DNA from: an uncultured bacterium
Lineage (GTDB): Bacteria > Patescibacteriota > Patescibacteriia > CAIQCM01
NCBI GenBank assembly: GCA_963708045.1
Contig: OY970181.1
Coordinates: forward strand, 451,740 to 515,739
DNA: 64,000 nucleotides
Direction: 5' to 3'
Made by a program: the position numbers and the translations under genes. The notes below the pieces were generated by a model. It was not told the DNA's origin. It was given only the letters and a program-made list of their open reading frames with translations, and searched no databases. This document shows, one piece after another, positions 3,648 through 51,095 of the stretch. Every line of letters begins with the position of its first letter. Position 1 is the first letter of the stretch.

Positions 3648-3680
3648 CAAAAGCCCTCGCTTATTGCGGGGGCTTTTGTT
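3648..3680 (+). terminator. rho-independent terminator after groEL
   Basis: aaaagccctcgcttattgcgggggcttttgtt stem-loop followed by a T-run; the same 26-nt core recurs at 5616-5646. Confidence 0.6.
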
Positions 3681-3763
3681 AAAAATTTGACGGGGGGGGG
3701 CAAAAAACAGATACGATTTATCCTTCGCGCATAACGCGCGAAGAAAACGTATTGGAGGATTGG

Positions 3764-16800: not shown

Positions 16801-19393
16801 GTATGACTCGTCTATTGGCAGTGGGACAATGGTGAATGGGGTAGACCCGGGCGCTTGCCTCACTTGGTTCCCAATTGATCAGCCAAACGGCAAGGATATT
16901 CTTAATCAATTTGCTTCAGCCGCTTTTGTCCCAAATCCGGGTCAGGAACGCTATTGCGCCGCCCCGCTTAAAGCCTGTGGTGCCGACCTTTGCGACAATG
17001 GCAGTGAACAATATAACTTCTGCAAAAAAATTAAAAAAACTCAATACAGCGTTCCGCCTCCGATAGGTGGATATAAAGATGGTGGCAGTTGCGCGAACAG
17101 TGTTAATTATCCAAGCGATTGCGGTGCTGAAACACCCTCGCCGTGGTGCGACAATACTGCACGGAAGAACACAAAAATAACTGATGCCGGAAGTAAGAGT
17201 ATGTGCAGTTATATGATTAGCCAGGCTTGTTCCGTGGCTGGCGCTCAAACGGTTTGTCAAAATAATATTAAAAAAGCATATCCAGATCAGTGTGGTACCG
17301 ATGCGAATTTTGATGATGTTTATGGTGGGGATAATTTTCATCAAGACTGTTTTGATATGCGCGAGTCTTGCGTTAATAGTCCGTTTTTAAGATCGACCAA
17401 CTGTCAATCGCTGATTGCCCCTGGTGCTGATTGTGACGATCTTAAACGCAAAGATACGCCAGAACAGGTTATAACCAATGAGCTAATTCAAGCGCGCATT
17501 ATTACCTGCGCCGTGCTGATTGGCGCTAGCGTTTGTTTGCCAGTAACGCCAGCACAATGCGAAAGCTTGGGCAAAATATATTGCACCAATGACAGCGAAT
17601 GCAAGGCCTCGGTGCCAAGCGCCAGCTGTCAGGCGGTTAAGGAAATTGCCGTTAATAATACTGAATATACGGCCAATGAATTTGGCAAAGGAACAGTAAA
17701 TAGTCCCGACCATAATGCTTATGACTATCCGCCAAACGCCCACTCGCTTGGTTGGTCAACAGAAATGAATAGCAACGGAAATAATAAAGCCTACACGGTT
17801 GATGGTGTTTTGCAGTTTGCCGTTAGCACGGCACCCGAAAGTGTTTCCGGTCCGTGGTCAGACTATAAGAGTAATGATGATAGCGGTAGCAAAAGACAGC
17901 CAGTTGATTTTGAAACCGGACATATCATTAGCGGTTATCCGGCCGATTTTACGGGAATGTATTATATAACCGAAAAAGAAATGGGCACGGTTAATTATGA
18001 TTTGGTTTATCCAGCGCTTCTTCTCCAAAGCCAGCTTTCGCACATTACAATTGCTGTTGCCTCTAAGCAGAACGAACTTTCTAATATTTGTTCTTCGGAT
18101 TTTTCTTGGACAAAGTTTGGTTTGGCTGTCGGTGCGGGTAATGGTTTAGGGGTCTTTATTTCGCCGGTTACGATTGTTGTTGGTTTGTTTGCTGGTTGGT
18201 TTTGGGACAGCGAATGTTCACACCTAAACCTTGGCTATACTTTTTATAGCAATAACGATGATGAGAATTTTACCAAAAATTTTGCCGTGCTAAGCACTTC
18301 AAACGGCTGGTCGGCAACGCTCGCTGGTAAAGAAGGTAACGCAACCTTTAAAGCCTTGTTTAGTAATACCACACCGGTTCGTCTTACCGGAATGCGTGTG
18401 GAATTTCTTGATAATGTCACTAAGGGCTACTTTTACATTAACGGCGCTAATTATCACCTAGAAGACCGGCGTGATGGTAAAGACCAAAACAAGGTTGACT
18501 CGCCAGCCTGCGGCCTAGCTGGCTATATTGGTTCTTCAAACCCACAAGCGGAAAAAAATATTCCAACCGCTTTTACCAATCGTCTTAATTCAATTAAAAA
18601 TTACGACGCTTCGGTTACGGCTTTTGCCGACATAAACGATGCTAGTGGCAAGCCGCCAACAATTACTTATAACAACAAAAATTGTCCCTGGGGTGTCTTT
18701 ACCTACCCCGATCCGGCCTCTATTATTTTGGATAGCACGATAAACAGCGGCACGCGCACCCAGTGTCAGTTTGGCAAGGGCGCGATCTTTAGTTCGTGGG
18801 GCGCGCTTAAGCGTTTGTATCAAAATATTTGGGATTGGCGTTTGTTTAACGAAGACCCGGTTGGTTCCGACCCAACTGGCGTTAAGCCCGGCGGCTTTGC
18901 CTTTACTCAGCCTTATAATTCCAACGGTTTGCCGATTGATAATTCTGGCACCTCGCCAGCTGACAGTGGGATTAATGGTTCAATGCCAAGTGTAAGCAAT
19001 ATAAAAATTAACGGCTCGGGTGATCCGGTTAATGCGGTTGCGCCGTTTAAGGCTGACCTAAAGTTTTATGCTGGCGCCGACGCCAACCATATGCCGCTTC
19101 GTTCCATTAGAATTGACTGGAACGACGGGACGGTTTATGATTCCGGCATTTATAATTCGTTTAAAAACCATTTGTCTAATTGCGCTGCAAACGACGCGGC
19201 GGCGTCAAGTTTTGCGCTTGCGCCATCGGCTTGCGACACAACGCCATTTTCCTTTTCACATGTTTACACTTGTGCAAGCGACAGTTGTGTTTTTACCCCA
19301 ATCATTACCGTCGGCGACAATTGGCGCATAGGGAACGCTCTTTACACCGCCGTGGCCATTGCCCCGACGATTACCCTTAAAAAAGCCGAGTAG
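10817..19393 (+). CDS. giant secreted cysteine-rich repeat protein (2858 aa) with an N-terminal signal peptide and a hydrophobic segment near the C-terminus
   Basis: Single uninterrupted ORF; signal MNYFKNKKNFLALAAILLVVLSCGFVFPKQAAA; at least 9 copies of a [AVI]GC-x-[AE]-[FWYL] module (AGCRAF, AGCDGF, VGCDEF, NGCRLY, IGCKAF, VGCTEL, VGCDAW, AGCTEY, AGCAAL); TM-like FGLAVGAGNGLGVFISPVTIVVGLFAGWFW. Confidence 0.85.
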   Translation: MNYFKNKKNFLALAAILLVVLSCGFVFPKQAAAIPVEVTVDAQATQEQIMNKAVDATMDSWKLATTQALITALDMATQTMAKNYATWLATGGASRSPLAWLKSLGKIAGDSYANAASDFLNTLAVKYTGYGLCQPVDPQITLNIKLGIFRDLQPSKPKCTWNQLSKNYDTMKNTLQTGAFLKNFSVAFQPAQNDIDNALTLHYAARNEAQKTSSLTILDATKAGGFSDLTSLISGDIKTPASMIQENLSIVEKSADDTNKHKFEATIGAVDVMKSAASGIAANAGKMFLNTLSTKLVDKYTKGGMFSLAGAICATRLAGELDVCKKNGDSGVPDTVALGANAVALADAYYTSIFTATPSTNSDYSLLADLIACPDGVARNVYNCAMDQQFANALQKQTTGGYLTVERALLQGIIPNNAIIGKGNPDDGTRECYTKGYCYTNLRKLRRADIVPVGWELAAEAIGTRQGVTLREVMSRFNDCNSSGSIDGTHPYCHLIDPDWVLKIPLERCNALVSGQTLEATGAPDRAQVCTDVSTCISEDTNGKCTGGYGYCTREKGGWSVNADSCPSQYGSCEAYAKTNVADGEVDQNGAWLSNTLDAKACTATTAGCRAFAINKSFGKWVDNKRLYITSSAPVCEASAAGCAALQDAATTSTRNLISNPSFENARADGLAVSWLGLGGAYVASDVVNAFDGKASYHVQGDGLKLGGYNYGQPTDADHYGEVVVQPKSVYTFSFYAKGSGTGTLTMKAFDSPFYGADHACDNGTNTTKPSCLQNMTADVGILPACATTGSGAVSCTIIDNFDFGTAVPKSAFGFNFPLSSGYERYTMTFATSSNTHYLDFLFNGGDFYLDAIQLELAPSATTFHVGGSDLNGTTSNIKIPPAYLKCSGDEKTDPADCKKYAAACRATEAGCDGFTPVLGGTTIPGVVNATDICPAVCVGYSTFKQEATQWEVTATDTVRFPKYFIPSTGKSCSLPDVGCDEFTNLEKVAAGGESKNYFTFLRACRKSDQANESTFFIWEGSDTSGYQLKSFVLRTGPATDTRMSIVSAAGDTSPANGPTYIRTTDASKCSSAIVNLAATDPNYNPDCREFINANGDRYYRLLSRTISSTDECNNFRKTISAEADCVGTGGIWDANSCTYEGLSAESITCQAQVNGCRLYTGNNGANTETILFDDFESGSNGWVGGQISGEATVVGGHSLASSNVPPNGTVDAIAYKPLVGVDGTSILKKGKSYTVTVWAKGKGSFGAGILPNSRNFGGGKIYILNGDYSNTLALTSNWQRYVLGPVFIDSDLSSEAVLNFFFAGKNINDIDYLDNIEITATNGQFAIVKDSWKTPDVCDKTVDGAPLPQAQLGCAAYNNTAGTITNLKSFTSLCRNSAIGCKAFIDRAGTVSPFTGSYNVRCETASSADVLVSTPCVIGTETLCTISANSSFCRFNKDGILPASTPAFKIVSNVGNAAAPDIFAVPADTIRYFVAKEENNCERAAVGCTELGKIEYGKTSTCTLAGGVVCNVKSGCACTGVSDSILQTKTNPAVACFVAKGDTSCTYSVDPNKPSFPASSVYRIVKPDNFAKGDLCNADAVGCDAWTSGAGTTQYFKNPGDVLCEYKSNVIVAGTESSGWFKKNSNEPCDPKFVVTGSTFGIHKNLDEYYANFAGVCITSAAGCTEYRDTFDQSVLGGKSYFFIKNNKITDASANCAKGASNKKGCVLFNDQSNPSAIWNAAATYDASAKNNFDFTPPVSTAGTATPNDANIVLEAQLDRTCSEWLECNSWETVKNSANGQTVSQCLSLGSCIEKDANGNCAKWQDNGVGTLLAETYASRPVVFGSPDFTGYSAPGLGSLGTARQIIASVGADYAGNALSVSGKNFAQSCKSYPEASAPFSQGLAPKGGNVCDLPNGNPTGKTCDCSYRKVSYSGGLNKYFPPTAETSDYPIRGQVLLQPAEIPSAVCVGGAVEKEGKKCNPLAADQENECPDGTCTKISKIESVIGGKGYCLEYDSSIGSGTMVNGVDPGACLTWFPIDQPNGKDILNQFASAAFVPNPGQERYCAAPLKACGADLCDNGSEQYNFCKKIKKTQYSVPPPIGGYKDGGSCANSVNYPSDCGAETPSPWCDNTARKNTKITDAGSKSMCSYMISQACSVAGAQTVCQNNIKKAYPDQCGTDANFDDVYGGDNFHQDCFDMRESCVNSPFLRSTNCQSLIAPGADCDDLKRKDTPEQVITNELIQARIITCAVLIGASVCLPVTPAQCESLGKIYCTNDSECKASVPSASCQAVKEIAVNNTEYTANEFGKGTVNSPDHNAYDYPPNAHSLGWSTEMNSNGNNKAYTVDGVLQFAVSTAPESVSGPWSDYKSNDDSGSKRQPVDFETGHIISGYPADFTGMYYITEKEMGTVNYDLVYPALLLQSQLSHITIAVASKQNELSNICSSDFSWTKFGLAVGAGNGLGVFISPVTIVVGLFAGWFWDSECSHLNLGYTFYSNNDDENFTKNFAVLSTSNGWSATLAGKEGNATFKALFSNTTPVRLTGMRVEFLDNVTKGYFYINGANYHLEDRRDGKDQNKVDSPACGLAGYIGSSNPQAEKNIPTAFTNRLNSIKNYDASVTAFADINDASGKPPTITYNNKNCPWGVFTYPDPASIILDSTINSGTRTQCQFGKGAIFSSWGALKRLYQNIWDWRLFNEDPVGSDPTGVKPGGFAFTQPYNSNGLPIDNSGTSPADSGINGSMPSVSNIKINGSGDPVNAVAPFKADLKFYAGADANHMPLRSIRIDWNDGTVYDSGIYNSFKNHLSNCAANDAAASSFALAPSACDTTPFSFSHVYTCASDSCVFTPIITVGDNWRIGNALYTAVAIAPTITLKKAE

Positions 19394-43311: not shown

Positions 43312-44976
43312 TTACTCAACAAAATAAGTTACCACTTTCCCATCCTTACGAATTGAATTTTGGGCCAGCCCTAATTTGATCTGAACTCCCTTTCCCTTGA
43401 AGGCTTCAGCCATTTTTATAACGGAAAGAATATCCGGCGCGACCGGAATTTTATCTTCAGGCATCTCAACGGCATCAGTATGAGAGAAGCCAATCGTGAG
43501 AATATATTTAGTTTTCCCATCCCTCTCATCTTTTCTTACCTCGTGAATGTTAACGGCATGTATCAGCGAAGGATAATCCAGGCTGAATTGCGCTCGAACT
43601 TTCTTGTGCTTACTTTTTAGCAGTTCTGGATCTTCAATCATCAATTCCCCACCATCCTCACTTGAGGATATTTTACCCCCATGATTTTTTAGCCATTCGA
43701 TAATGACATCCATCAGCTGATCTTTGTCTTCAGCAATAATGTTAAAAACGGTATTGTCCTCAATGGGTATATAATGCTCATTTACTTGCTGCATGGTGCG
43801 ATAGCTCTTAAGCCTCCATTGTCCTAAATCGTATTTTTTGATAGCAGTTTCGGCATCAGCAATTGATTCTGCCAATGTTTGCGATCGGTTAATTTTTAAC
43901 TCACGGACAAAATCTTCTTCCGATAATATTCCGGAAGCCAACGCTTCTTTTAATCGTGTGGCCTGAATAAATTGATTTTCTCTCGGATCACTTAGATATG
44001 GTAAACCAGTTTCTACCGGGAACGACTCAACTCTCTCAACCAAATCCTCTAATTTCTTTTTCTCTAAGCGCTCCACTGGAAAGATATTTTCCAATGGATT
44101 ATACAGACATTTTCCTTGTTCATTATAAACTGGAATCTGCTCGTTTTTTGGCAATAGTTTATTCTGGACATTAATAATGTGTTCTAGTGCCGCTTCTTTT
44201 GTTGGTGGGGCATCTCCACGCCTATTTTCCCTCATGTCGTCCGGTATAACAATCGCGTTAATCGTTTTACAGCTTAAAAGTTGACGATAGGCGCGTTTAT
44301 CTTTTTCCTTGTCATCCGGCAAAAATTCACCAGCCTCATATGTTTTTTTACCATCTTTGCCCACATAACTTTTTTCTCCTTTGAATTCGGGGATTAAAAG
44401 TTGTTCTGGTTCCGGGAAGTTTTCTAATTTGCCCCAATCCGCATGGTCAATGCCGTAAAATTCTATTCTACCTAGGTCCTCATGTAAGTCACCATCGCCG
44501 TGTCTAACTAATATTTCACCACCAACACCATTAGTAACCCGGCCGCTAGTAAGATTAACCACGCCATTTATTAAATTCGGCCACAATTTTTTAAAAATAT
44601 CTGTAACAAAAATAATTTGGCCACCAAATATTACTCTATCTTGGCCAAACCCAATTTTAGTGTTATGACCAGAGTTATCAACCGCTGGAACACCAATAAG
44701 ATTAAAATCTACATTATATTTTTCTATCCCATCTGGTAGACGATACCACCCCAATCCTTTAGTAAGAATGCCTTCGAGATTACTTAAATCACTACCGTGT
44801 ACAGCTAACCCATCCTCATTAATATTGAAGGACTCTATTGCTTCTGGCGAGCGCAATTTTAATCTCTCAAGCAAAAGATAACCCTCTTGTTCCTTGCTTA
44901 CTTCTGTGGGTTCCTGGTTTTTTTGATTCGACTCCCGCTCCGAATCCTGTGAGAATGATTCTATCTCTCTTGGCAT
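43312..44976 (-). CDS. hypothetical protein (554 aa)
   Basis: Long ORF with no recognisable motif; flanked by direct family D repeats at 43256-43279 and 45002-45029. Confidence 0.5.
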   Translation of the reverse strand: MPREIESFSQDSERESNQKNQEPTEVSKEQEGYLLLERLKLRSPEAIESFNINEDGLAVHGSDLSNLEGILTKGLGWYRLPDGIEKYNVDFNLIGVPAVDNSGHNTKIGFGQDRVIFGGQIIFVTDIFKKLWPNLINGVVNLTSGRVTNGVGGEILVRHGDGDLHEDLGRIEFYGIDHADWGKLENFPEPEQLLIPEFKGEKSYVGKDGKKTYEAGEFLPDDKEKDKRAYRQLLSCKTINAIVIPDDMRENRRGDAPPTKEAALEHIINVQNKLLPKNEQIPVYNEQGKCLYNPLENIFPVERLEKKKLEDLVERVESFPVETGLPYLSDPRENQFIQATRLKEALASGILSEEDFVRELKINRSQTLAESIADAETAIKKYDLGQWRLKSYRTMQQVNEHYIPIEDNTVFNIIAEDKDQLMDVIIEWLKNHGGKISSSEDGGELMIEDPELLKSKHKKVRAQFSLDYPSLIHAVNIHEVRKDERDGKTKYILTIGFSHTDAVEMPEDKIPVAPDILSVIKMAEAFKGKGVQIKLGLAQNSIRKDGKVVTYFVE

Positions 44977-45096
44977 ACTATTTTATTTAAAAATTATAAT
45001 CAGGGACATGACCCCTTATTTATACTCTATACAAAAACTCCGCGCCAGAGCGTGGAGTTTTTGAACGGTGTGTACCGGTCTGGTACCAACCTGCTG

Positions 45097-45128
45097 GCTT
45101 GCCATAAACCCCATGCGGTTTGTGGCGG
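45097..45128 (+). repeat. att-like direct repeat (distal end of the tRNA-Ser-associated island)
   Basis: gcttgccataaaccccatgcggtttgtggcgg; 29/32 identical to 50731-50762, which overlaps the 3' end of tRNA-Ser(GCU). Confidence 0.6.
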
Positions 45129-45314
45129 TATTATAAGGTGTTTTGAAGGCTTTGGCCAATGGCGATTTTGAGGTGTGTAGGTCGGCGGTCGGATTTCAAA
45201 ATGAGACAAATGAGACACTTTAATCGAGTTTTTTGGAGTGTCTCACTTTGGGCTTTTAAGCCATTTCTTTTTAGCTTAAAAGGAGTATCCTTTATTAGGA
45301 AAGATTGGATTTTT

Positions 45315-45494
45315 ATGAAAAAAATAACGGATAAAATCGAATACCTCCTCCGCCAAAAGAGGCGTTCTAGGCGTAGTGAAAAAGCGCGATTACGGCACAG
45401 AAAAAAACAGAAGCGAGTAAGGCGGCTTCTTTATAAAAGAAGCTGGGATAATCGTAAAAAATTTTTAAAGGAATTTTCGAGCATTTGGAGATAA
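45315..45494 (+). CDS. small highly basic protein (59 aa; doubtful)
   Basis: MKKITDKIEYLLRQKRRSRRSEKARLRHRKKQKRVRRLLYKRSWDNRKKFLKEFSSIWR; Arg/Lys-rich; could be a spurious ORF. Confidence 0.3.
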   Translation: MKKITDKIEYLLRQKRRSRRSEKARLRHRKKQKRVRRLLYKRSWDNRKKFLKEFSSIWR

Positions 45495-45528
45495 CCGCGT
45501 TCGTGCACCGAAAATTTTTTCTTTATTA

Positions 45529-46410
45529 TTGAATACTGAGGAAACCGTTCGTTTCCTGCAACGAATTAATGCGTTATGGCAAAAGAGGGAGTGCGTTTTT
45601 GTCGCGTTAAAAGATGTAGAGATCATTGACCATAGCGCTACGACGGTGCTCCTTTCTTTAATACACCGTTTTCGCGTCGCCAATATTAAATTCAATGGCG
45701 ATTTTCCTGCAAACCAAACCGCGAATACGATTATTCAGGAGTCTCAATTTTTTGAAAGATTGAACATGGTTCGCCCGAGTAGCAAGGATTACACCATTAA
45801 ACGAAACAACCAAATTATTGGAGAGGCTGGTACGCAGACGATAGACCCGAATACCTCTTTGGCGATATGCGATGACGTATCGCAAACTATTACAGGGTCG
45901 TCAAAATACGTGTTCCCAACACTGCACCCGATGTTTATGGAATTGATGCAAAATACGTATGAGCACGCGGGAGAACACAAAGGAACCGTCCATTGGTGGT
46001 TATCAACAAATCATGATAAAGATAATAAAACCGTGTCTTTCCACTATATAGATTACGGTTGCGGCATAATCGACAGCGTCCTAAATAAGGAGAACAATCG
46101 TATTGCAAAAAAGTTCAAGAGATTGGCTTTTTCATTATTCCAAAAAGATCAATTTTCTAATATTATTTTGCGCTTGCTGAACAATGAACACCGTGAATCG
46201 CAAACCGAATACTACAGGGGGAAAGGAATTCCGAGCTTAAAAAAATCCCTTGATAATAAACGCTTAAAATGCTTAAATGTTGTTACTAACAGAGCGGTAG
46301 TCGATGCTGGCAACGGCGTAGCCAGAGATCTCAGCGAGGATTTTACTGGCACATATATTAGCTGGATGCTTGATAAAGATTGTGAGAAAAAAATATGGGC
46401 GAAACAATAA
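45529..46410 (+). CDS. GHKL/histidine-kinase-like ATPase-domain protein (RsbW-like kinase fold) with an about 120-aa N-terminal extension
   Basis: N-box ELMQNTYEHAG, G1 box IDYGCGIID, G2-like YRGKGIPSLKK; TTG start on the track. Confidence 0.5.
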   Translation: MNTEETVRFLQRINALWQKRECVFVALKDVEIIDHSATTVLLSLIHRFRVANIKFNGDFPANQTANTIIQESQFFERLNMVRPSSKDYTIKRNNQIIGEAGTQTIDPNTSLAICDDVSQTITGSSKYVFPTLHPMFMELMQNTYEHAGEHKGTVHWWLSTNHDKDNKTVSFHYIDYGCGIIDSVLNKENNRIAKKFKRLAFSLFQKDQFSNIILRLLNNEHRESQTEYYRGKGIPSLKKSLDNKRLKCLNVVTNRAVVDAGNGVARDLSEDFTGTYISWMLDKDCEKKIWAKQ

Positions 46411-46730
46411 AAACTTCCGTTAAAGATTTCTCATACACCCCCGGACCACGAAACAAAAGGGAGGGTGATTTTTCGGCCGAGCTTTTTTTGGAAACGATTC
46501 TGGAACCAATATTCAAACGAATGGATGCGGACAAAGATTTAAAATTGGAGATTAATCTCAATGGTACCTTAGGCTACGGAACAAGTTTTCTTGAAGAAAT
46601 TTTTGGCGGAACCGCGCGCAATAGAGGCGTTGATTTTGTGAGAAACCGAATAGAGATAACATCAAATGAAGAGCCGTGGCTGAAAGATGAAATAAAAGGT
46701 TATGTTGATGATGTTGAAAAGCATACTTAA
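46395..46730 (+). CDS. DUF4325 / STAS-like domain protein (partner of the GHKL ATPase)
   Basis: LKLEINLNGTLGYGTSFLEEIFGG matches the DUF4325 core I.LDF.GV....SSFL.E.FG; 16-nt overlap with the upstream ATPase gene. Confidence 0.5.
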   Translation: MGETIKTSVKDFSYTPGPRNKREGDFSAELFLETILEPIFKRMDADKDLKLEINLNGTLGYGTSFLEEIFGGTARNRGVDFVRNRIEITSNEEPWLKDEIKGYVDDVEKHT

Positions 46731-47328
46731 GTGGTTAATCAGCCCGATATTATTTTTGCTCTTGGGAATCTGCATTGGCTCTCCTGTTTGGTTGCGCCAT
46801 GCTGAATGGCTGAAATGGAGCGAGCTGGATCTGTCAAACACCCTATCGATATTAGGACTTGTCATAAATACGATTCTCGCGGTCGTCATCGTGCTTGTAT
46901 TGCAAAGATTGCAAGATATCCAACGCGTAGAGAAAAACATACTCATAAGCCGGCTCGAGGAAGAACTTAAGTGCATTAAGGATTTTGTCGATGGTTGTTG
47001 CGTGAGCGGCAATCCAGTGGATTTTTCTTCCGTCACTAGTTTTTTTAAAACGATAAATATTCGAATTAGCAAAATCACCGATACTCACAGTAATTGCAAA
47101 AAAGAAACTGATGATTTGTTTGAGGAGACCTTGGCTTTAAATTCTTTATTGACAGACCCTAAAGGAACAGACGATTTGAAAATTGACAATAATAAAATAT
47201 CAATAACGCCCAAAAGGATACAGGAGATAAAAATACAGATTGCCGAAGTTCAAAACCGAACTCTGGAACTTATCATTTGTATTAATAGACAGGCCACCAA
47301 AAGAGGCCGAACCAAAGAAAAGAAATAA
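46702..47328 (+). CDS. membrane-anchored coiled-coil protein
   Basis: Two N-terminal TM helices (ISPILFLLLGICIG and LSILGLVINTILAVVIVLVL), then a charged helical region. Confidence 0.45.
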   Translation: MLMMLKSILKWLISPILFLLLGICIGSPVWLRHAEWLKWSELDLSNTLSILGLVINTILAVVIVLVLQRLQDIQRVEKNILISRLEEELKCIKDFVDGCCVSGNPVDFSSVTSFFKTINIRISKITDTHSNCKKETDDLFEETLALNSLLTDPKGTDDLKIDNNKISITPKRIQEIKIQIAEVQNRTLELIICINRQATKRGRTKEKK

Positions 47329-47369
47329 CGGTAAACTTGCGAGGTTCTTTATTTAAAAGCTTTCCATTT

Positions 47370-48011
47370 TTAATGGAAAGCTTTTAAATATGGCCAGATT
47401 AAATATTTGCTGAGAATTTCTTTAGGATTATAAACTTCATACCATGGCTTCATTGCTATGGTATTTGGGCTTTCATTAAGAGGGACGGAGACGTATTTCA
47501 ATAATTTTTTAGGAGGTAGGATCCCCGCGTTGTCTTTTATCGTTAGTATCATGAAGCCGTTTTTAGAAACGGTTCTGGCTTTTAAAACGCCGTCGCGCAC
47601 GAGCTTTTTAACGGTCGGAGCTTTCAATTTCAAATATATATCGAGATCGCTTGAAGAGTACCAGCTTTCGTTGTTGCGGCAGGCACTGCCGGGGAGCTCT
47701 TTTTTGTTGACGGCATGTTGGCAAGCTAGGCATTTTTTACCCCACTTATCGTACCAAAGTTCCTCATTCTTTATTTGGGCCGAACAAATGGCGCAGCTAT
47801 ATGTCCCTCCGTTCATGATATGAAAACCATTGGGAGAAGTTTTTAATTTTTCTTTAAGCTGTCGTTCTCGTAAAGAACAATCGAATAGCACCTTGAAAAG
47901 ACCTATCAACCTATTTGCGGATTCGGTTGCTTCCTGACGGCTTATTTCCGTGCCGTACGTCTTTTTGTAAATTTCTTGGAATTCGTCAATTGCTTTTTCA
48001 GGTAGCAGCAT
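47370..48011 (-). CDS. zinc-ribbon-containing hypothetical protein
   Basis: CAIC...CLAC Cys4 pairs; 4 nt downstream of the HEPN-like gene on the same strand. Confidence 0.45.
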   Translation of the reverse strand: MLLPEKAIDEFQEIYKKTYGTEISRQEATESANRLIGLFKVLFDCSLRERQLKEKLKTSPNGFHIMNGGTYSCAICSAQIKNEELWYDKWGKKCLACQHAVNKKELPGSACRNNESWYSSSDLDIYLKLKAPTVKKLVRDGVLKARTVSKNGFMILTIKDNAGILPPKKLLKYVSVPLNESPNTIAMKPWYEVYNPKEILSKYLIWPYLKAFH

Positions 48012-48015
48012 AAAA

Positions 48016-49032
48016 CTATTGTTTTGGTTTTATAACGACCCTACCCAGTAGAACAAGGTAAAGATATAAAACCAACGTGGTATTTTCAAAATTACATTCC
48101 ATTGGTTCGATTTCACCGTGCGCAATTTTGTGCCTAATTCTATATCCCATTTGTTCAAATAGAACGAATTTTATTTGCCTGCAGAAGTCTTCGCTCCACG
48201 CCTTCTTAAATTCCTCTGAATCCAAATCCATTTCCGATAAGACTTTTGTTCTCGTTGCAATTCCTTGTTTTTGGTCTAATGCCACGATGTTAATACCTAG
48301 TCTCTCAGAGATTTTTAAGAAAACGTTTTCAAATTGCGGTACAAGAATATGTAACGCAGAGACATAATCGCGATCGAAATATTTCTGAAGGCCAACCAAG
48401 ATTATTTTAAGATTTTTATCCTCAAAAATTCTAGCCTCAGAAAAATATTCAGATAACTCCTTCATGTTTAAATTTATGCCGTGAGGTTTGTTTTCCATAA
48501 GTTCATAAATGACTCTGCCTAGATAAAATCGCATCACTAACTGTTGATGAAGATTATACATATCGATAAACCAAGAATACCTCCCGTCAGAACCCCCGCG
48601 CAAAATATGCCCATTATTGGAAATGGTTGACATGCTCGTAATCTGGCGAAAGATAGACATTTCCCCACTGGCCTGTTGTTGCATAATTGCTAATTTCGGA
48701 AAGAATAACGGACTTCTTCCTATCGCTCGTAAGATGGTTTTTAAGTCGCCCTGGTTTAAAAATTTCGTTATAAATTCCTCGCGCAATTTTATCTTATCTT
48801 CGGAAAGTGTTTGTGTAACAGAAAGTTCTTTGAAATCTTTGCCGGATGCCATCGATTTTTTGTTCATTTCGACAATTTTGTTTTTGCACAATGTTATGGC
48901 ATTGGATTTGCCCCGCTGTCCTATCGCAATCTTCAGCGCGTCTTTATAGAAAAAAGCAGCGCGAAAAAAGTCTTTCTGTTTTTCTGCTTCTTGGGCTTGA
49001 GAAAGCTTATTCTGCAATTCAATGTTATCCAT
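48016..49032 (-). CDS. HEPN-motif (Abi-like) protein, putative abortive-infection/RNase-type defence protein
   Basis: C-terminal Rx4HG motif GYRIRHKIAHGEIEP typical of HEPN (Abi_C/AbiD-like RN.IAHG); 338 aa. Confidence 0.4.
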   Translation of the reverse strand: MDNIELQNKLSQAQEAEKQKDFFRAAFFYKDALKIAIGQRGKSNAITLCKNKIVEMNKKSMASGKDFKELSVTQTLSEDKIKLREEFITKFLNQGDLKTILRAIGRSPLFFPKLAIMQQQASGEMSIFRQITSMSTISNNGHILRGGSDGRYSWFIDMYNLHQQLVMRFYLGRVIYELMENKPHGINLNMKELSEYFSEARIFEDKNLKIILVGLQKYFDRDYVSALHILVPQFENVFLKISERLGINIVALDQKQGIATRTKVLSEMDLDSEEFKKAWSEDFCRQIKFVLFEQMGYRIRHKIAHGEIEPMECNFENTTLVLYLYLVLLGRVVIKPKQ

Positions 49033-49404
49033 ATATGGGCTACATCATACACCCATAAAACCCACTTATCCACACGGTGTGCAAAAAGGCTTTTTTGAAG
49101 GTTTTTAGAATTCGTGAAAAACCATACTTCGAAAATCCAGATTTTAAGAGAAAAAATTAAAATTGATTTTGTAAGTCTTTACACTATTGACAATTTACCC
49201 AAATTAATCAAAATAGAGCCAAATATTGACTGTTTTTGGCACCGGACTTCATGAAGCGAAGGTGATATGACCATTCGCTGAAACAAAAAACTAAAAAAAG
49301 AAATAAATGGTCCCGTCCTATTCGTTAACTACTAATTAACATTATCCATTCTTTTAAATGACCAAAATAAATTGATTGTAAAATCAGAAAATAAGCGCGA
49401 CATG

Positions 49405-49746
49405 TTAATTGTTATTTTTAATTAAAAAATTCAAACCATTTATTTCGCCATCATGAGTATTCGTATAAATGTCGTAATGGGTGTCCTGATCGAAAATATT
49501 TTCTCCAAATTTTGACCACTTTTCTACGACTAAGGAAAACCAATTATCAATATTATCGTTTGATAATTCCCCGTTATACGGGATTTTGTAAAGGTCATTT
49601 AAATACTCCAACGATGAGCAAACAAATATTTTTGTATGTTTTTTCTCATCATCAGAGAGAATAATAATTCTAGCCCAATATAAGTCCCTACTAAAATCCC
49701 TTTTTAAAGTCCCTTTCTCTGCCTTCATATTAAAAACCTGCAACAA
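49405..49746 (-). CDS. hypothetical protein
   Basis: 113 aa ORF in the AT-rich island. Confidence 0.35.
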   Translation of the reverse strand: MLQVFNMKAEKGTLKRDFSRDLYWARIIILSDDEKKHTKIFVCSSLEYLNDLYKIPYNGELSNDNIDNWFSLVVEKWSKFGENIFDQDTHYDIYTNTHDGEINGLNFLIKNNN

Positions 49747-49767
49747 TAATTTTAAGCAAAAAATTAC

Positions 49768-50223
49768 CTATCTACGATTGCCATGTATTATATACAATAC
49801 GATGCGTTCAATACCTTGTATTAAAAACATGGTTAAAAAGCCCCAAAAAATTCCATTTATTATCGAATAACCATATACATCAATTGAATCACTAAAACGC
49901 CAATTGACTTCACCTTTTTCAATTAAATAACCAAATATTAATGAGACGAAAGAGACAAACCAACCTAAAACATTTAGCAATCTCTCCCACCAACTATCTT
50001 GAGTTAAAAAAGTAAAAAAAGAAATTTTAAATTGCTTCTTTTTGACATTCAAAAAAATAAAGGACGTAACAGAAATTATTAGGACAGTGAATCCACCAAA
50101 ACCTAAAAAATCCTCAATAAAACTATGTGAATAATTTTTTGAAAAAATGAACAAAAAAGATGCTATTAATATACAATATGACGCAAACACCAATGCGTTT
50201 TTATTTATGAATTTTATGAGCAT
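49768..50223 (-). CDS. hypothetical membrane protein (4 TM)
   Basis: 151 aa; hydrophobic helices throughout. Confidence 0.4.
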   Translation of the reverse strand: MLIKFINKNALVFASYCILIASFLFIFSKNYSHSFIEDFLGFGGFTVLIISVTSFIFLNVKKKQFKISFFTFLTQDSWWERLLNVLGWFVSFVSLIFGYLIEKGEVNWRFSDSIDVYGYSIINGIFWGFLTMFLIQGIERIVLYIIHGNRR

Positions 50224-50316
50224 ATCTTTTTGATTGTAATTCGTCTGGACAATACCACGTCGTTCGCCTCATACTCATAAGAGTTAAGGTCGCTCGATAC
50301 GAAATTGTCTTAGCTT

Positions 50317-50604
50317 TTATTCTACAACTGATTCCATAATAGTGCCATCGTTTACCAATAACGAATCTCTTAACATCATGCGCAGTGTTGATTTTCCCTT
50401 GGTTGTTTTTAAATAAATTTCTCGCCTCGTTGCATCGGATGTCGTGAGATACGCCTCATAATGGATTATTTTTAATGGGCGGTAAGCTTTTGTTGATTGT
50501 GTTTCGCCTCGTTCGTGTTGCTGGAAACGGCGTTTTAGATCTTTGGTGCTGCCAACATATATCCAGTTTCTATTTTGACTTTTTAAAACATATACATAGT
50601 GCAT
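50317..50604 (-). CDS. GIY-YIG nuclease-superfamily protein, YhbQ/UPF0213-like
   Basis: MHYVYVLKSQNRNWIYVGSTKDLKRRFQQHERGE matches the GIY-YIG core (YVYiL...YVG.T.dL.rR..qH..G); start taken at an internal Met of the longer track ORF. Confidence 0.7.
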   Translation of the reverse strand: MHYVYVLKSQNRNWIYVGSTKDLKRRFQQHERGETQSTKAYRPLKIIHYEAYLTTSDATRREIYLKTTKGKSTLRMMLRDSLLVNDGTIMESVVE

Positions 50605-50730
50605 ATAACATATTATAAACCCGGAAAGCGCCGCGCACCATGTGAGGTGCACGGCTGCCATAAACCACGTTTGCTTTGAGTATTCATCTATCAAAAAACA
50701 CGTAGAGCATGACAAACCATATATAGAATG

Positions 50731-50762
50731 GCTTGCCATAAACCCCACGTGGTTTATGGCGG
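50731..50762 (+). repeat. att-like direct repeat, proximal copy overlapping the tRNA-Ser 3' end
   Basis: gcttgccataaaccccacgtggtttatggcgg; partner at 45097-45128; a degenerate third copy ggctgccataaaccacgtttg at about 50654-50674. Confidence 0.6.
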
Positions 50763-50846
50763 AGAGTATAGGATTTGAACCTATGAGCCCCCTTACGGGA
50801 GCGCAGTTTAGCAAACTGCTGCCTTGGACCACTCGGCCAACTCTCC
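50757..50846 (-). tRNA. tRNA-Ser (anticodon GCU), class II with long variable arm, CCA encoded
   Basis: Reverse complement reads GGAGAGT-TG-GCC...anticodon loop tt-GCT-aa...variable arm gctcccgtaagggggc...T-arm ATAGG-TTCAAAT-CCTAT...ACTCTCC-G-CCA. Confidence 0.8.
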
Positions 50847-51095
50847 ATATTATTTTAATTGTTCGTTGGCCTCGTGGTAGAACCACTCCCAGCCAAAGGC
50901 TGGTGCGCCTCGGGCGCAGGCCAACTCTCCATATCTCGTTGATTGTGAGTAAAATATATTAAAAAAACGGCTAAATGTCAATTTTCTTTGTTTTTTTAGC
51001 TGAACAGAGCTTATCAAAAGCAACCCAAAGTAAATTGTATCAATGGGTAAAAGGAGTAGAATTGTTATTAGATTAACTGATTAACAAATTTTTTT

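What the first reader, a model, noticed from the sequence alone, without database searches (positions are those of the whole stretch)
45097..50846. 5.7 kb island next to tRNA-Ser(GCU), bounded by 32-bp imperfect direct repeats, carrying GHKL-ATPase/DUF4325, HEPN-like/Zn-finger and GIY-YIG genes
The sequence gcttgccataaaccccacgtggtttatggcgg at 50731-50762, which overlaps the last 6 nt of the tRNA, is repeated with 3 mismatches at 45097-45128; a degenerate third copy lies near 50654. This is the signature of site-specific integration at a tRNA. No integrase is visible, so the element may be a decayed or trans-mobilised island. The AT-rich cargo is defence-flavoured. It includes a GHKL-type ATPase (N, G1 and G2 boxes) translationally coupled to a DUF4325/STAS-like protein, which resembles a partner-switch pair. 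A 338-aa protein carries a C-terminal HEPN Rx4HG motif and sits next to a Cys4 zinc-ribbon protein. A stand-alone YhbQ-like GIY-YIG protein lies next to the tRNA, and a partial duplication of the tRNA 5' segment (ggccaactctccatat at both 50835-50850 and 50922-50937) sits just outside the island. This may be an uncharacterised phage-defence or toxin module.
Basis: partly seen in the sequence, partly recalled or inferred. Interest (0 to 1): 0.7.

Follow-up and report, generated by a model that had tools for sequence, protein, structure and literature searches.

The report
Defence island beside tRNA-Ser, kinase–STAS–membrane module
A 5.6-kb low-GC stretch downstream of a serine tRNA gene is an integrase-less accessory island; its most interesting cargo is a three-gene operon (STAS-GHKL kinase, small STAS protein, small membrane protein) that looks like an undescribed variant of the recently published VapKSC/CapKS anti-phage kinase switch, although the kinase gene is frameshifted in this genome.

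Summary
The repeat is real (34 nt, 31/34 identical).

Three corrections:
1. The "GHKL" gene is the 3' part of a roughly 364-aa gene split by one extra T. The intact protein has basic helices, a STAS domain and an RsbW/SpoIIAB-like kinase domain.
2. It forms a conserved three-gene operon with the DUF4325 protein and a two-TM protein. The same trio lies next to restriction-modification (R-M) systems, on a phage, on a plasmid and on serine-recombinase islands at tRNA genes. It resembles VapKSC/CapKS (EMBO J 2026), but a membrane protein replaces the PIN toxin.
3. The repeat is not a simple att duplication. It is the tRNA 3' end (CCGCCA) plus a trailer hairpin. In relatives this motif follows several tRNAs and forms the host side of insertion sites for large-serine-recombinase (LSR) islands.

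Two related contigs carry different, much shorter content at this locus, and GC is 37% against 42–45% in the flanks. The region is therefore a variable, composite, integrase-less island. No exact empty site was found.

The HEPN assignment (DUF4209, invariant Rx4H, PADLOC PDC-S39) holds. The zinc-finger neighbour is not a conserved partner.

Novelty: a new variant of a known kind. All functions are inferred.

The parts
45003..45074 (-). Conserved terminator unit 'T': hairpin AAAAACTCCRCGC-N4-GCGYGGAGTTTTT followed by GAGTATAAATAAGGGGTCATGTCCC. It lies immediately upstream of the 554-aa gene (43312-44976, minus strand). In relatives L089 and L105 the same unit directly follows tRNA-Ser(GCU).
   Evidence: searches (I3) show a single copy in the window. 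Searches show 89% identity to L089 6411-6482 and L105 6583-6654. The terminator scan is.
45095..45128 (.). Distal copy of the 34-nt repeat: CCGCCA plus the palindromic hairpin GCCACAAACC-N6-GGTTTATGGC, read on the minus strand.
   Evidence: The copy is present in L089 but absent from L105, as a 28-nt indel bounded by GCCA.
45129..45192 (-). Conserved non-coding segment with a promoter-like site (TTGGCC-18-TATAAT, 45159->45130) pointing through the hairpin towards terminator T. Together with 45033-45128 it may encode a small RNA of about 90 nt.
   Evidence: Searches show 92% and 80% identity to L089 and L105. One search gives the promoter-like site. One search gives the fold, z -4.15.
45315..46410 (+). 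Gene A (K-like). It encodes basic N-terminal helices, a STAS domain and an RsbW/SpoIIAB-like GHKL kinase domain. One extra T in the T4 run at 45474-45477 splits it into a 59-aa ORF (45315-45494) and a 293-aa ORF (45529-46410).
46395..46730 (+). Gene B (S-like). It encodes a 111-aa DUF4325 STAS-like protein with the invariant GYG-T63-S64-FLEE motif and a short acidic C-terminal helix. It overlaps gene A by 16 nt.
46711..47328 (+). Gene C. It encodes a protein of about 205 aa with two N-terminal transmembrane helices and a conserved Cys-containing helical domain. It overlaps gene B. This is the putative effector.
   Evidence: No Pfam, PADLOC, PHROG or PDB match was found.
47350..47390 (.). Perfect 19-nt inverted repeat between the convergent genes C and ZnF. 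It is probably a bidirectional terminator.
   Evidence: I2.
47370..48011 (-). 213-aa protein with a CxxC...CxxC zinc ribbon and a weak excisionase-type HTH_17 match.
   Evidence: One search gives E 0.062. Searches find no phage homologue. L105 keeps only a remnant of about 15 codons after its DUF4209 gene.
48016..49032 (-). 338-aa DUF4209-family HEPN protein with the RHKIAHG motif.
   Evidence: PMC3710099.
49405..49746 (-). 113-aa protein of unknown function in the 30% GC block.
49768..50223 (-). 151-aa protein with four predicted transmembrane helices in the 30% GC block.
50317..50604 (-). 95-aa stand-alone GIY-YIG protein, co-directional with tRNA-Ser and downstream of it.
   Evidence: One search gives E 2e-16. 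A 50%-identical homologue sits between two tRNA-Met genes in L103/L104.
50627..50762 (-). Conserved tRNA-trailer element of about 135 nt. It includes the proximal 34-nt repeat copy (50729-50762) and the half copy (50656-50678). The motif AAACCACGT occurs three times.
   Evidence: Searches show 82-86% identity to L090, L093, L098 and L102, next to tRNA-Asp or its displaced end.
50757..50846 (-). tRNA-Ser(GCU) with an encoded CCA.
50850..50937 (-). tRNA-like four-way-junction leader that repeats the first 16 nt of the tRNA. It is preceded by a promoter-like site at 50981->50953.
   Evidence: (D7).

Best explanation
Window 45.1-50.8 kb is a composite accessory island with no integrase. It occupies a variable locus immediately 3' of tRNA-Ser(GCU) in a small-genome, Patescibacteria-like bacterium.

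The two 34-nt repeats are copies of 'tRNA 3' end (CCGCCA) plus trailer hairpin'. In relatives this motif follows several tRNA genes. It forms the host half of the sites into which large-serine-recombinase (LSR) islands insert. The repeats therefore mark an integration hot spot and old junctions. They are not the product of one clean insertion.

The cargo consists of independent conflict modules.

1. A three-gene operon, A-B-C.
- A is a kinase with a basic N-terminal helical arm, a STAS domain and an RsbW/SpoIIAB-type GHKL domain.
- B is a small DUF4325 STAS protein with an invariant Thr-Ser at the position of the phospho-serine.
- C is a two-TM protein.
- By analogy with VapKSC, B most likely holds C inactive. 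A is switched on by an infection or damage signal, probably nucleic acid such as ssDNA made by restriction or repair, and phosphorylates B. B then lets go of C, and C damages the membrane or arrests growth, giving abortive infection or a toxin-antitoxin effect.
- In this genome A carries a +1 frameshift, so this copy is probably inactive unless the extra T is an assembly error.

2. A stand-alone DUF4209 HEPN protein, a predicted RNase and PADLOC candidate PDC-S39, with a lineage-specific zinc-ribbon/HTH neighbour.

3. A 30% GC block with two small proteins, one of them with four TM helices.

4. A small GIY-YIG gene co-transcribed with the tRNA.

Shown here: the sequence features, the domain architecture, the conservation of the trio, its neighbourhoods and the variability of the locus. 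Inferred: every biochemical step.
For: Island:
- GC is 36.8% against 45.3% and 42.1% in the flanks.
- Related contig L089 has tRNA-Ser 98% identical and the distal unit 92% identical. It carries 1.07 kb with two unrelated small genes between them.
- L105 has the tRNA 99% identical and only about 210 nt between tRNA and distal unit. Its DUF4209 gene lies beyond the unit.
- The same cargo types ride LSR islands whose recombinase gene overlaps a tRNA 3' end: L108 has R-M plus A-B-C plus a 528-aa LSR at tRNA-Glu; L104 has a 516-aa LSR plus BglII R-M plus DUF4209 at tRNA-Asp; L093 has a 576-aa LSR plus type III R-M at tRNA-Asp.
- L102 is the empty version of the L093 site: tRNA-Asp, then CCCGCCA, then the hairpin.
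- In L106 the A-B-C trio alone sits 460 nt after tRNA-Ser(GCU), flanked by 84- and 87-nt direct repeats of 98% identity.

Trio:
- The A family has 2272 clusters at E<=1e-3, typically 350-370 aa, with invariant N, G1, G2 and G3 residues.
- Pfam STAS and HATPase_c match family members.
- hhalign gives 94% probability to CapK and 93% to VapK.
- B and VapS are both Pfam DUF4325.
- The order A-B-C with overlapping genes recurs in seven independent contexts. It lies directly after type III, type II (MvaI/BcnI) and methylase+GmrSD/HNH systems, near a type I system, beside the Cro/CI region of Marinobacter phage AS1, and beside an MNT/HepT pair on a Leptospira plasmid.
- A matches phrog_3364 at 1.3e-30.
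- Published mechanism of the relatives: PMC13373217.
Against: - No close genome with a truly empty tRNA-Ser site was found. The best RecQ match in 185,579 species genomes is only 64% identical.
- Gene order around the tRNA differs between the window, L089 and L105, so rearrangement rather than insertion could explain part of the variability.
- Next to the tRNA the window has what looks like an unoccupied site (tRNA, hairpin, 135-nt trailer). It does not have element DNA plus a recombinase there. This does not fit the LSR model.
- The supposed decayed tRNA fragments at the distal end are not better than shuffled sequence.
- A is only a remote relative of VapK and CapK. Plain HMM search does not find VapK (E 3.6e6 and 2e2).
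- C has no detectable homology to any toxin, nor to the third genes of the phage and plasmid operons. Its effector role rests on position and topology alone.
- PADLOC has no model for A, B or C.
- A is frameshifted here.
Confidence: 0.6

Rival explanations
1. The 5.6 kb is one element that integrated once by site-specific recombination into the tRNA-Ser 3' end. The two 34-nt repeats are its attL and attR, and the integrase was lost later.
For: - The repeats are direct, bracket the low-GC DNA exactly, and include the last 6 nt of the tRNA.
- Integrase-less mini-islands flanked by tRNA-end repeats exist, for example L106.
Against: - The hairpin occurs independently after other tRNAs with no island, namely L088, L097, L099, L094 and L102.
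- In the occupied/empty pair L093/L102 only CCCGCCA is duplicated, and the hairpin is host DNA.
- The distal copy plus both its flanks is conserved in L089, whose cargo is different.
- L105 has the distal unit without the hairpin.
- The cargo is mosaic. The DUF4209 gene lies outside the unit in L105, and one block is 30% GC.
Confidence: 0.15
2. The region is ordinary chromosome. The repeats are merely two members of a REP-like or tRNA-trailer hairpin family, and the genes are resident, vertically inherited accessory genes.
For: - The hairpin family is dispersed: 16 metagenome contigs, some with tandem hairpins, one upstream of a 16S gene.
- There is no integrase.
- No exact empty site was found.
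Against: - GC drops by 5-8 points.
- The content differs completely in L089 and L105 although the boundaries are 88-99% identical.
- Every cargo module is found elsewhere on recombinase-bearing islands, a phage or a plasmid.
Confidence: 0.15
3. A-B-C is a housekeeping partner-switching signalling module, not a defence or toxin system. C would be a membrane sensor or anchor, and the A-B pair would relay envelope stress to some target elsewhere.
For: - The closest solved folds are the stress and sporulation regulators SpoIIAB/RsbW and RsbV/RsbS.
- C has no recognisable toxin domain.
Against: - There is no sigma factor, PP2C phosphatase or DNA-binding output in or near any of the operons.
- B has no wHTH domain.
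- The trio travels with R-M systems, TA pairs, a phage immunity region, a plasmid and serine-recombinase islands.
- The experimentally characterised relatives with a DUF4325 partner form a toxin-antitoxin defence system (PMC13373217).
Confidence: 0.15

Closest known systems
VapKSC (VapK kinase, VapS STAS antitoxin, VapC PIN toxin); Chambers et al., EMBO J 2026, PMC13373217
   Same: - It is a three-gene operon in the order kinase, small STAS protein, third protein.
- The kinase has STAS plus an anti-sigma-type GHKL domain.
- The small protein is Pfam DUF4325 with a short C-terminal helix and a conserved Ser/Thr at the start of helix 2. VapS scores 2.7e-17 and B scores 1.1e-8.
- It is found near other defence genes.
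   Different: - The third protein is a two-TM protein of about 200 aa, not a PIN nuclease.
- A has an extra basic N-terminal arm of about 60 aa that VapK lacks.
- A is only remotely related to VapK. hhalign gives 93% over the GHKL domain only, and HMM search does not find VapK.
- The residue aligned by eye with VapK F54 is Ile, not an aromatic residue.
CapK/CapS regulators of immune operons (same paper)
   Same: - Kinase length and layout match: an N-terminal extra domain, then STAS, then GHKL. hhalign gives 94%, E 1e-7.
- It frequently lies immediately downstream of an R-M operon. This holds for 88/443 capKS loci and for 3 of 5 metagenomic contexts of the trio.
   Different: - B has no winged-helix DNA-binding domain and is DUF4325, whereas CapS is not.
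- The N-terminal arm of A gives no HTH match.
- A small membrane protein follows instead of an immune operon such as CBASS or Bub.
SpoIIAB-SpoIIAA and RsbW-RsbV partner-switching modules
   Same: - The Ser/Thr of B aligns with SpoIIAA Ser58. That alignment uses a SpoIIAA sequence recalled from memory.
   Different: - There is no sigma factor and no PP2C phosphatase.
- The kinase carries its own fused STAS domain.
- The genes are mobile and sit in conflict-gene neighbourhoods.
DUF4209 / C6orf70 family of HEPN proteins (Anantharaman et al. 2013, PMC3710099); PADLOC candidate PDC-S39
   Same: - The Rx4H motif is invariant.
- Homologues carry PF13910.
- The family occurs beside R-M systems, as described in the paper and as seen in L103 next to BglII R-M.
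   Different: - The protein covers only the C-terminal half of the PDC-S39 models, which are about 600 aa.
- It has Ser at a position that is Pro in 115 of 116 homologues.
- No function has been tested for this family.
Large-serine-recombinase genomic islands at tRNA 3' ends
   Same: - The position is the same, immediately after the CCA end.
- The cargo types are the same (R-M, A-B-C, DUF4209).
- The hairpin lies at the distal junction, as in L093.
   Different: - There is no recombinase or remnant of one.
- The hairpin is present at both ends.
- The side next to the tRNA looks unoccupied.

Membership tests
VapKSC | Kinase with a STAS domain fused to an anti-sigma-type GHKL domain, with a conserved catalytic Asn | tested here: met
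   [not shown]
VapKSC | Kinase is a sequence homologue of VapK | tested here: inconclusive
   hhalign gives probability 93%, E 3.5e-7, over the GHKL domain only. hmmsearch with the family profiles does not detect VapK.
VapKSC | [quoted passage not shown] | tested here: met
   Pfam DUF4325 scores 1.1e-8 for B and 2.7e-17 for VapS. GYG[TS]SFLEE is invariant in 5 close homologues and present in the phage and plasmid homologues. Direct hhalign of B against VapS was uninformative because both profiles are shallow.
VapKSC | Third gene encodes a VapC-like PIN nuclease toxin | tested here: not met
   C has no PIN or other Pfam domain, and it has two predicted TM helices.
VapKSC | ssDNA-activated phosphorylation of S releases the toxin, and the system protects against phage | not testable with these tools
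   This needs biochemistry and plaque assays.
CapK/CapS | CapS has a STAS domain plus a winged-helix DNA-binding domain | tested here: not met
   B is 111 aa and matches DUF4325 only. CapS shows HTH_24 and related hits and no DUF4325 hit.
CapK/CapS | CapK has an HTH-STAS-GHKL layout | tested here: inconclusive
   The length is the same and hhalign gives 94%. The N-terminal 57 residues of A are modelled as two long basic helices with no HTH family hit.
CapK/CapS | Sits upstream of an immune operon, often directly after an R-M system | tested here: inconclusive
   Relatives lie directly after R-M systems in L001, L108 and L110. Only gene C follows, and in the window itself there is no R-M system.
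SpoIIAB/RsbW partner switch | A cognate sigma factor and PP2C phosphatase are encoded in the neighbourhood | tested here: not met
   Neither is present in the window island or in any of the seven contexts.
HEPN superfamily, DUF4209 family | Rx4H catalytic motif in a C-terminal helical domain | tested here: met
   R295, H296, K297, A299, H300 and G301 are invariant in 116 homologues.
HEPN superfamily, DUF4209 family | Match to Pfam PF13910 | tested here: met
   The window protein scores 21.2 bits against a 22.3 cut-off. Most of its 120 listed homologues carry PF13910 in precomputed annotation.
PADLOC PDC-S39 | Full-length match to the candidate-system model | tested here: inconclusive
   E is 2.7e-15, but only model positions 273-584 of 615 are matched.
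tRNA-integrated genomic island | Lies adjacent to the 3' end of a tRNA gene and is flanked by a direct repeat that includes the tRNA end | tested here: met
tRNA-integrated genomic island | An integrase or recombinase gene, or a remnant of one | tested here: not met
tRNA-integrated genomic island | An empty site in a related genome | tested here: inconclusive
   L105 is nearly empty (about 210 nt). L089 has 1.07 kb of different cargo. Both come from rearranged, moderately divergent relatives, and no close genome is available.
tRNA-integrated genomic island | Composition that deviates from the flanks | tested here: met
   36.8% GC against 45.3% and 42.1%.
GIY-YIG nucleases | GIY-YIG catalytic domain | tested here: met
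   Pfam PF01541, E 2e-16, covering residues 1-71.

The most novel reading that the evidence does not exclude
A-B-C may define a widespread, undescribed abortive-infection or toxin-antitoxin family of the 'kinase, STAS, membrane effector' type. The kinase family has more than 2000 clusters at 50% identity, and members occur in candidate-phyla bacteria, spirochaete plasmids and temperate phages. In this reading, phosphorylation of a DUF4325 STAS protein gates a small membrane protein instead of a nuclease. The system is typically wired directly behind restriction-modification operons, so that damage made by restriction triggers membrane killing.

A second, independent possibility is that the CCA-plus-hairpin trailer is a portable attB module. 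It would spread among tRNA genes and make them targets for one family of serine-recombinase islands.
Probability: 0.35. Interest if true: 0.65.

Novelty: new variant of a known kind. Interest (0 to 1): 0.5.

Why it matters
A third output class would show that the switch is a general, modular sensor. Here that output is a small membrane protein, in a kinase family that is large, is present on phages and plasmids, and has no model in the PADLOC release (v2.0.0, 2023) searched here. It would also give an easily testable three-gene system. The intact operons from Parcubacteria OLB19, Marinobacter phage AS1 and Leptospira plasmid p4 are suitable candidates.

The frequent position directly behind R-M operons supports the published idea that such kinases couple first-line restriction to second-line killing.

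Separately, the occupied/empty pair and the recurring CCA-hairpin trailer give a concrete handle on how small defence islands move between tRNA genes in reduced-genome bacteria that are otherwise hard to study.

Tried and rejected
1. Exact-sequence look-ups of window proteins, meant to find the source genome and near-identical relatives, returned nothing.
2. A RecQ-based scan of species genomes for a syntenic relative found nothing closer than 64% identity, so a true empty-site test was impossible.
3. I first read the distal junction as two decayed tRNA-Ser 3' fragments. Local alignment against shuffled controls does not support this (932/2000 and 54/2000 shuffles score as well), so I dropped it.
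4. I considered a GIY-YIG-linked mobile element that would explain the 135-nt trailer. The four other contigs with that trailer have no GIY-YIG gene nearby.
5. I asked whether terminator T is a genome-wide REP element. It has only one copy in 64 kb.
6. Sequence searches of the PDB with the A, B and C profiles found nothing useful. Foldseek on the first, poor model (pLDDT 68) was weak. The deeper alignment fixed this.
7. Homology between C and the third genes of the phage and plasmid operons was not detectable.
8. Rfam finds nothing at either junction or in the tRNA leader apart from the tRNA itself.
9. The hairpin pattern has no match in viral contigs.
10. The zinc-finger protein has no phage homologue.

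Full report
**1. What is in the sequence**

The repeat exists. Positions 45095-45128 and 50729-50762 share 31 of 34 nt. A 27-nt degenerate pattern built from it matches only these two sites in the 64-kb window, with none expected by chance. Each copy is itself a palindrome, GCCATAAACC-N6-GGTTTRTGGC. A half copy lies at 50656-50678.

ARAGORN and Rfam place tRNA-Ser(GCU) at 50757-50846 on the minus strand. The proximal repeat starts with the last six bases of the tRNA (CCGCCA, including an encoded CCA) and continues into the trailer. The stem of the hairpin contains the terminal GCCA of the tRNA.

The interior is 36.8% GC, against 45.3% to the left and 42.1% to the right. A block at 49033-50316 is 30.1% GC.

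No recombinase domain is present in the island ORFs or in ten large ORFs checked elsewhere in the window. tblastn with two serine recombinases from related islands finds no remnant.

**2. The genes**

*(a) Gene A.* The ORF at 45529-46410 (293 aa) is only part of a gene.
- Its homologues are 362-366 aa. Their first 70 residues correspond to the 59-aa basic ORF at 45315-45494, which is in another frame.
- Removing one T from the T4 run at 45474-45477 joins the two pieces into a protein collinear with the homologues.
- A profile of the family finds 2272 clusters (E<=1e-3) among 1.84 billion representatives, almost all 350-370 aa.
- In 110 diverse members the only invariant residues are N213, D246, G248, G250, G302, G304, N325 and G345. 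All but N325 correspond to the N, G1, G2 and G3 boxes of the Bergerat fold. E209 is nearly invariant.
- Pfam detects STAS in 15 members and HATPase_c in 12.
- Residues 1-57 form two long, very basic helices.

*(b) Gene B.* The ORF at 46395-46730 encodes a 111-aa DUF4325 protein (Pfam 1.1e-8). It overlaps gene A by 16 nt. The motif GYG-T63-S64-FLEE is invariant in close homologues. It recurs as GYGSSF and GYPSSF in distant ones.

*(c) Gene C.* The ORF at about 46711-47328 overlaps gene B. It encodes a protein of about 205 aa with two strong hydrophobic helices (residues 8-26 and 48-66 of the 208-aa ORF starting at 46702) and a conserved helical domain containing cysteines. It has no match in Pfam, NCBIfam, PADLOC, PHROGs or the PDB.

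*(d) HEPN protein.* The ORF at 48016-49032 belongs to the DUF4209 family.
- The window protein scores just below the Pfam cut-off, but most of its homologues carry PF13910.
- R295-x4-H300 is invariant in 116 homologues.
- Anantharaman et al. classified DUF4209 as a catalytically active HEPN family that occurs in R-M-related operons (PMC3710099).
- PADLOC's candidate PDC-S39 matches at 2.7e-15, over the C-terminal half of the model.

*(e) Zinc-finger protein.* The ORF at 47370-48011 has a zinc ribbon and a weak excisionase-type HTH match. It is not next to the DUF4209 gene in L103/L104. In L105 only about 15 codons of it remain.

*(f) GIY-YIG protein.* The ORF at 50317-50604 is a 95-aa GIY-YIG protein (2e-16). 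A 50%-identical homologue sits between two tRNA-Met genes in L103/L104. This small gene therefore seems to live inside tRNA transcription units and is probably not island cargo.

**3. The trio is a conserved mobile system**

The order A (about 364 aa), B (about 115 aa), C (about 196-206 aa), with overlapping genes, recurs in these contexts:
- after HTH + Mod + Res (type III R-M), downstream of tRNA-Glu (L001-L006);
- after HTH + methylase + MvaI/BcnI, and before ParDE and a zeta-like toxin, in Parcubacteria OLB19 (L110);
- after HTH + EcoRI-type methylase + GmrSD/HNH, and before a 528-aa large serine recombinase whose end overlaps tRNA-Glu (L108);
- between conjugation-type genes and RadC plus a type I R-M system;
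- 460 nt after tRNA-Ser(GCU), flanked by 84- and 87-nt direct repeats of 98% identity (L106).

Beyond these bacteria:
- Marinobacter phage AS1 carries a homologous operon next to its Cro/CI region. Gene 41 gives hhalign probability 98.8% against the A profile, gene 40 is DUF4325, and gene 39 has one N-terminal TM helix.
- Leptospira interrogans plasmid p4 carries one next to an MNT/HepT pair, annotated ATP-binding protein, STAS-like protein and a 166-aa protein with one TM helix.
- A similar trio is listed, unremarked, in Francisella prophage KIRK (PMC7924643).
- PHROGs holds the kinase as phrog_3364, of unknown function.

The third proteins share topology but no detectable sequence similarity.

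**4. Relation to what is known**

Chambers et al. (EMBO J 2026, PMC13373217) described two systems.

CapK/CapS is an HTH-STAS-GHKL kinase paired with a STAS-wHTH repressor. The kinase is activated by ssDNA. The pair controls adjacent immune operons, and 88 of 443 loci lie directly after an R-M system.

VapKSC consists of a STAS-GHKL kinase, a 116-aa STAS antitoxin with phosphosite S48, and a PIN toxin. It protects E. coli against phage Bas42.

I took the VapK, VapS, CapK and CapS sequences from the paper's supplementary files. The comparisons gave these results:
- VapS is Pfam DUF4325 (2.7e-17) and CapS is not. This agrees with an older note that one PIN clade is coupled to DUF4325 genes (PMC5499597).
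- The A profile aligns to CapK (94%, E 1e-7) and to VapK (93%, E 3.5e-7) in profile-profile comparison.
- A plain HMM search does not find VapK. The 2272-cluster family is therefore a separate branch.
- T63 of B lines up by eye with VapS S48, and in a MAFFT alignment with SpoIIAA S58. The SpoIIAA sequence was recalled from memory.

The window's trio therefore has the K and S parts of VapKSC but a membrane protein in place of the nuclease. The paper does not mention such a variant, and PADLOC has no model for it.

**5. How it most likely works (inferred)**

B binds the cytosolic domain of C and keeps it inactive. A senses a nucleic-acid signal; its basic arm and its usual position behind R-M operons point to DNA damage or ssDNA. 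A then phosphorylates B on T63/S64. B dissociates, and C perturbs the membrane, which stops growth before the phage completes its cycle.

The alternative, a housekeeping partner switch, lacks any sigma factor, phosphatase or DNA-binding output in all seven neighbourhoods.

**6. What the repeats are**

A scan of metagenome contigs with the hairpin pattern gave 16 loci. They fall into these groups:
- In five the hairpin directly follows an intact tRNA: tRNA-Arg(TCG) inside a tRNA operon in L088, L097 and L099, and tRNA-Asp in L094 and L102. In each case the terminal GCCA is part of the stem.
- Four loci (L090, L093, L098, L102) also share, at 82-86% identity, the 135 nt that follow the hairpin in the window (50627-50762).
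- L102 and L093 form an empty/occupied pair. In L102 tRNA-Asp is followed by CCCGCCA, the hairpin and the 135-nt trailer. In L093 the tRNA is followed by a 576-aa large serine recombinase (Resolvase + Recombinase + Zn_ribbon_recom) whose 3' end overlaps the tRNA. Then come a type III R-M system and other genes. About 10.7 kb further on comes ...CCCCGCCA, the hairpin and the trailer.

In that system, therefore, only about 7 nt are duplicated, and the hairpin belongs to the host side.

Two contigs are relatives of the window.
- L089 has the tRNA 98% identical and the distal unit at 45029-45185 92% identical. A neighbouring protein gene is only 78% identical.
- L105 has the tRNA 99% identical, the distal unit 80-88% identical and the DUF4209 gene 80% identical.

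In both, tRNA-Ser lacks an encoded CCA and is followed directly by terminator T, which in the window lies at 45003-45074. Between the tRNA and the distal unit, L089 has 1.07 kb with two unrelated small genes, and L105 has about 210 nt. In L105 the distal unit lacks the hairpin (a 28-nt indel bounded by GCCA), and the DUF4209 gene lies beyond it.

From this I conclude three things:
- The locus 3' of tRNA-Ser(GCU) is variable and mosaic.
- Its cargo modules are the kind carried by serine-recombinase islands at tRNAs.
- The 34-nt repeat marks such junctions but is not proof of one 5.6-kb insertion.

It remains unexplained why the tRNA-proximal side in the window looks like an unoccupied site. My early idea that the distal junction contains decayed tRNA fragments failed a shuffle test.

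**7. Verdict**

The island is an ordinary kind of object: an integrase-less defence island at a tRNA hot spot. The A-B-C operon is a new variant of a very recently described kind of system. It has a large uncharacterised family behind it, and the copy in this genome is probably dead.

Interest is moderate at 0.5. A defence-systems specialist would see it as a natural and testable extension of VapKSC/CapKS rather than a surprise.

Noticed in passing
window 50850-50937 (minus strand): An 88-nt tRNA-like four-way junction: an acceptor-like stem GUUGGCC/GGCCAAC plus three hairpins with 3-nt loops. Free energy is -38.3 kcal/mol, z -4.97. It begins with the same 16 nt as tRNA-Ser. It lies between a strong promoter-like site (TTGACA-17-TATATT, 50981->50953) and the tRNA. 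It has no Rfam match and is absent upstream of tRNA-Ser in relatives L089 and L105.
   Followed up: partly
window 45003-45192 (minus strand): A non-coding unit that is better conserved between relatives (92% to L089, 80-88% to L105) than a nearby protein gene (78%). It contains a promoter-like TTGGCC-18-TATAAT, two hairpins and an intrinsic terminator, so it may encode a small RNA of about 90 nt. In L105 it sits upstream of the DUF4209 gene rather than the 554-aa gene.
   Followed up: partly
window 50627-50762; L090, L093, L098, L102: A tRNA-trailer element of about 135 nt, conserved at 82-86% between the window's tRNA-Ser and tRNA-Asp loci of other organisms. The 9-mer AAACCACGT occurs twice in direct and once in inverted orientation, which resembles protein-binding sites.
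   Followed up: partly
L093 3664-14516 compared with L102 463-700: A clean occupied/empty pair. A 10.7-kb large-serine-recombinase island with a type III R-M system is inserted exactly between the CCA end of tRNA-Asp and the trailer hairpin. The duplicated core is CCCGCCA.
   Followed up: yes
L106 7356-10212: The A-B-C trio alone forms a 2.5-kb integrase-less cassette after tRNA-Ser(GCU). It is flanked by 84- and 87-nt direct repeats (98% identity) plus a 20-nt copy of the tRNA 3' end. A 37-nt copy of the tRNA 5' end lies 94 nt upstream of the tRNA, mirroring the 5' duplication in the window.
   Followed up: partly
window 50317-50604; L103/L104 3501-3773: Small (90-95 aa) GIY-YIG genes lie inside tRNA transcription units in both genomes. 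In L103 the gene sits between two tRNA-Met genes with 0-51 nt spacers. This suggests a functional or selfish link between this nuclease family and tRNA genes.
   Followed up: no
window 48016-49032 (residue S121 of P0161): The window's DUF4209/HEPN protein has Ser at a position where 115 of 116 homologues have Pro. The catalytic Rx4H motif is intact.
   Followed up: no
PHROGs phrog_5816 against window 46395-46730: The DUF4325 protein matches only positions 343-438 of a 441-residue phage family profile. Some phages may therefore encode the kinase and STAS parts as a single fused protein.
   Followed up: no
L093 2990-3688: A LAGLIDADG homing-endonuclease-like ORF ends inside the 5' end of tRNA-Asp (3664-3742), directly upstream of the island insertion site.
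   Followed up: no
window 10817-19393: A 2858-aa ORF whose only Pfam hit is a single carbohydrate-binding CBM_4_9 domain. It is probably a giant surface protein, as is typical of reduced-genome candidate-phyla bacteria.
   Followed up: no
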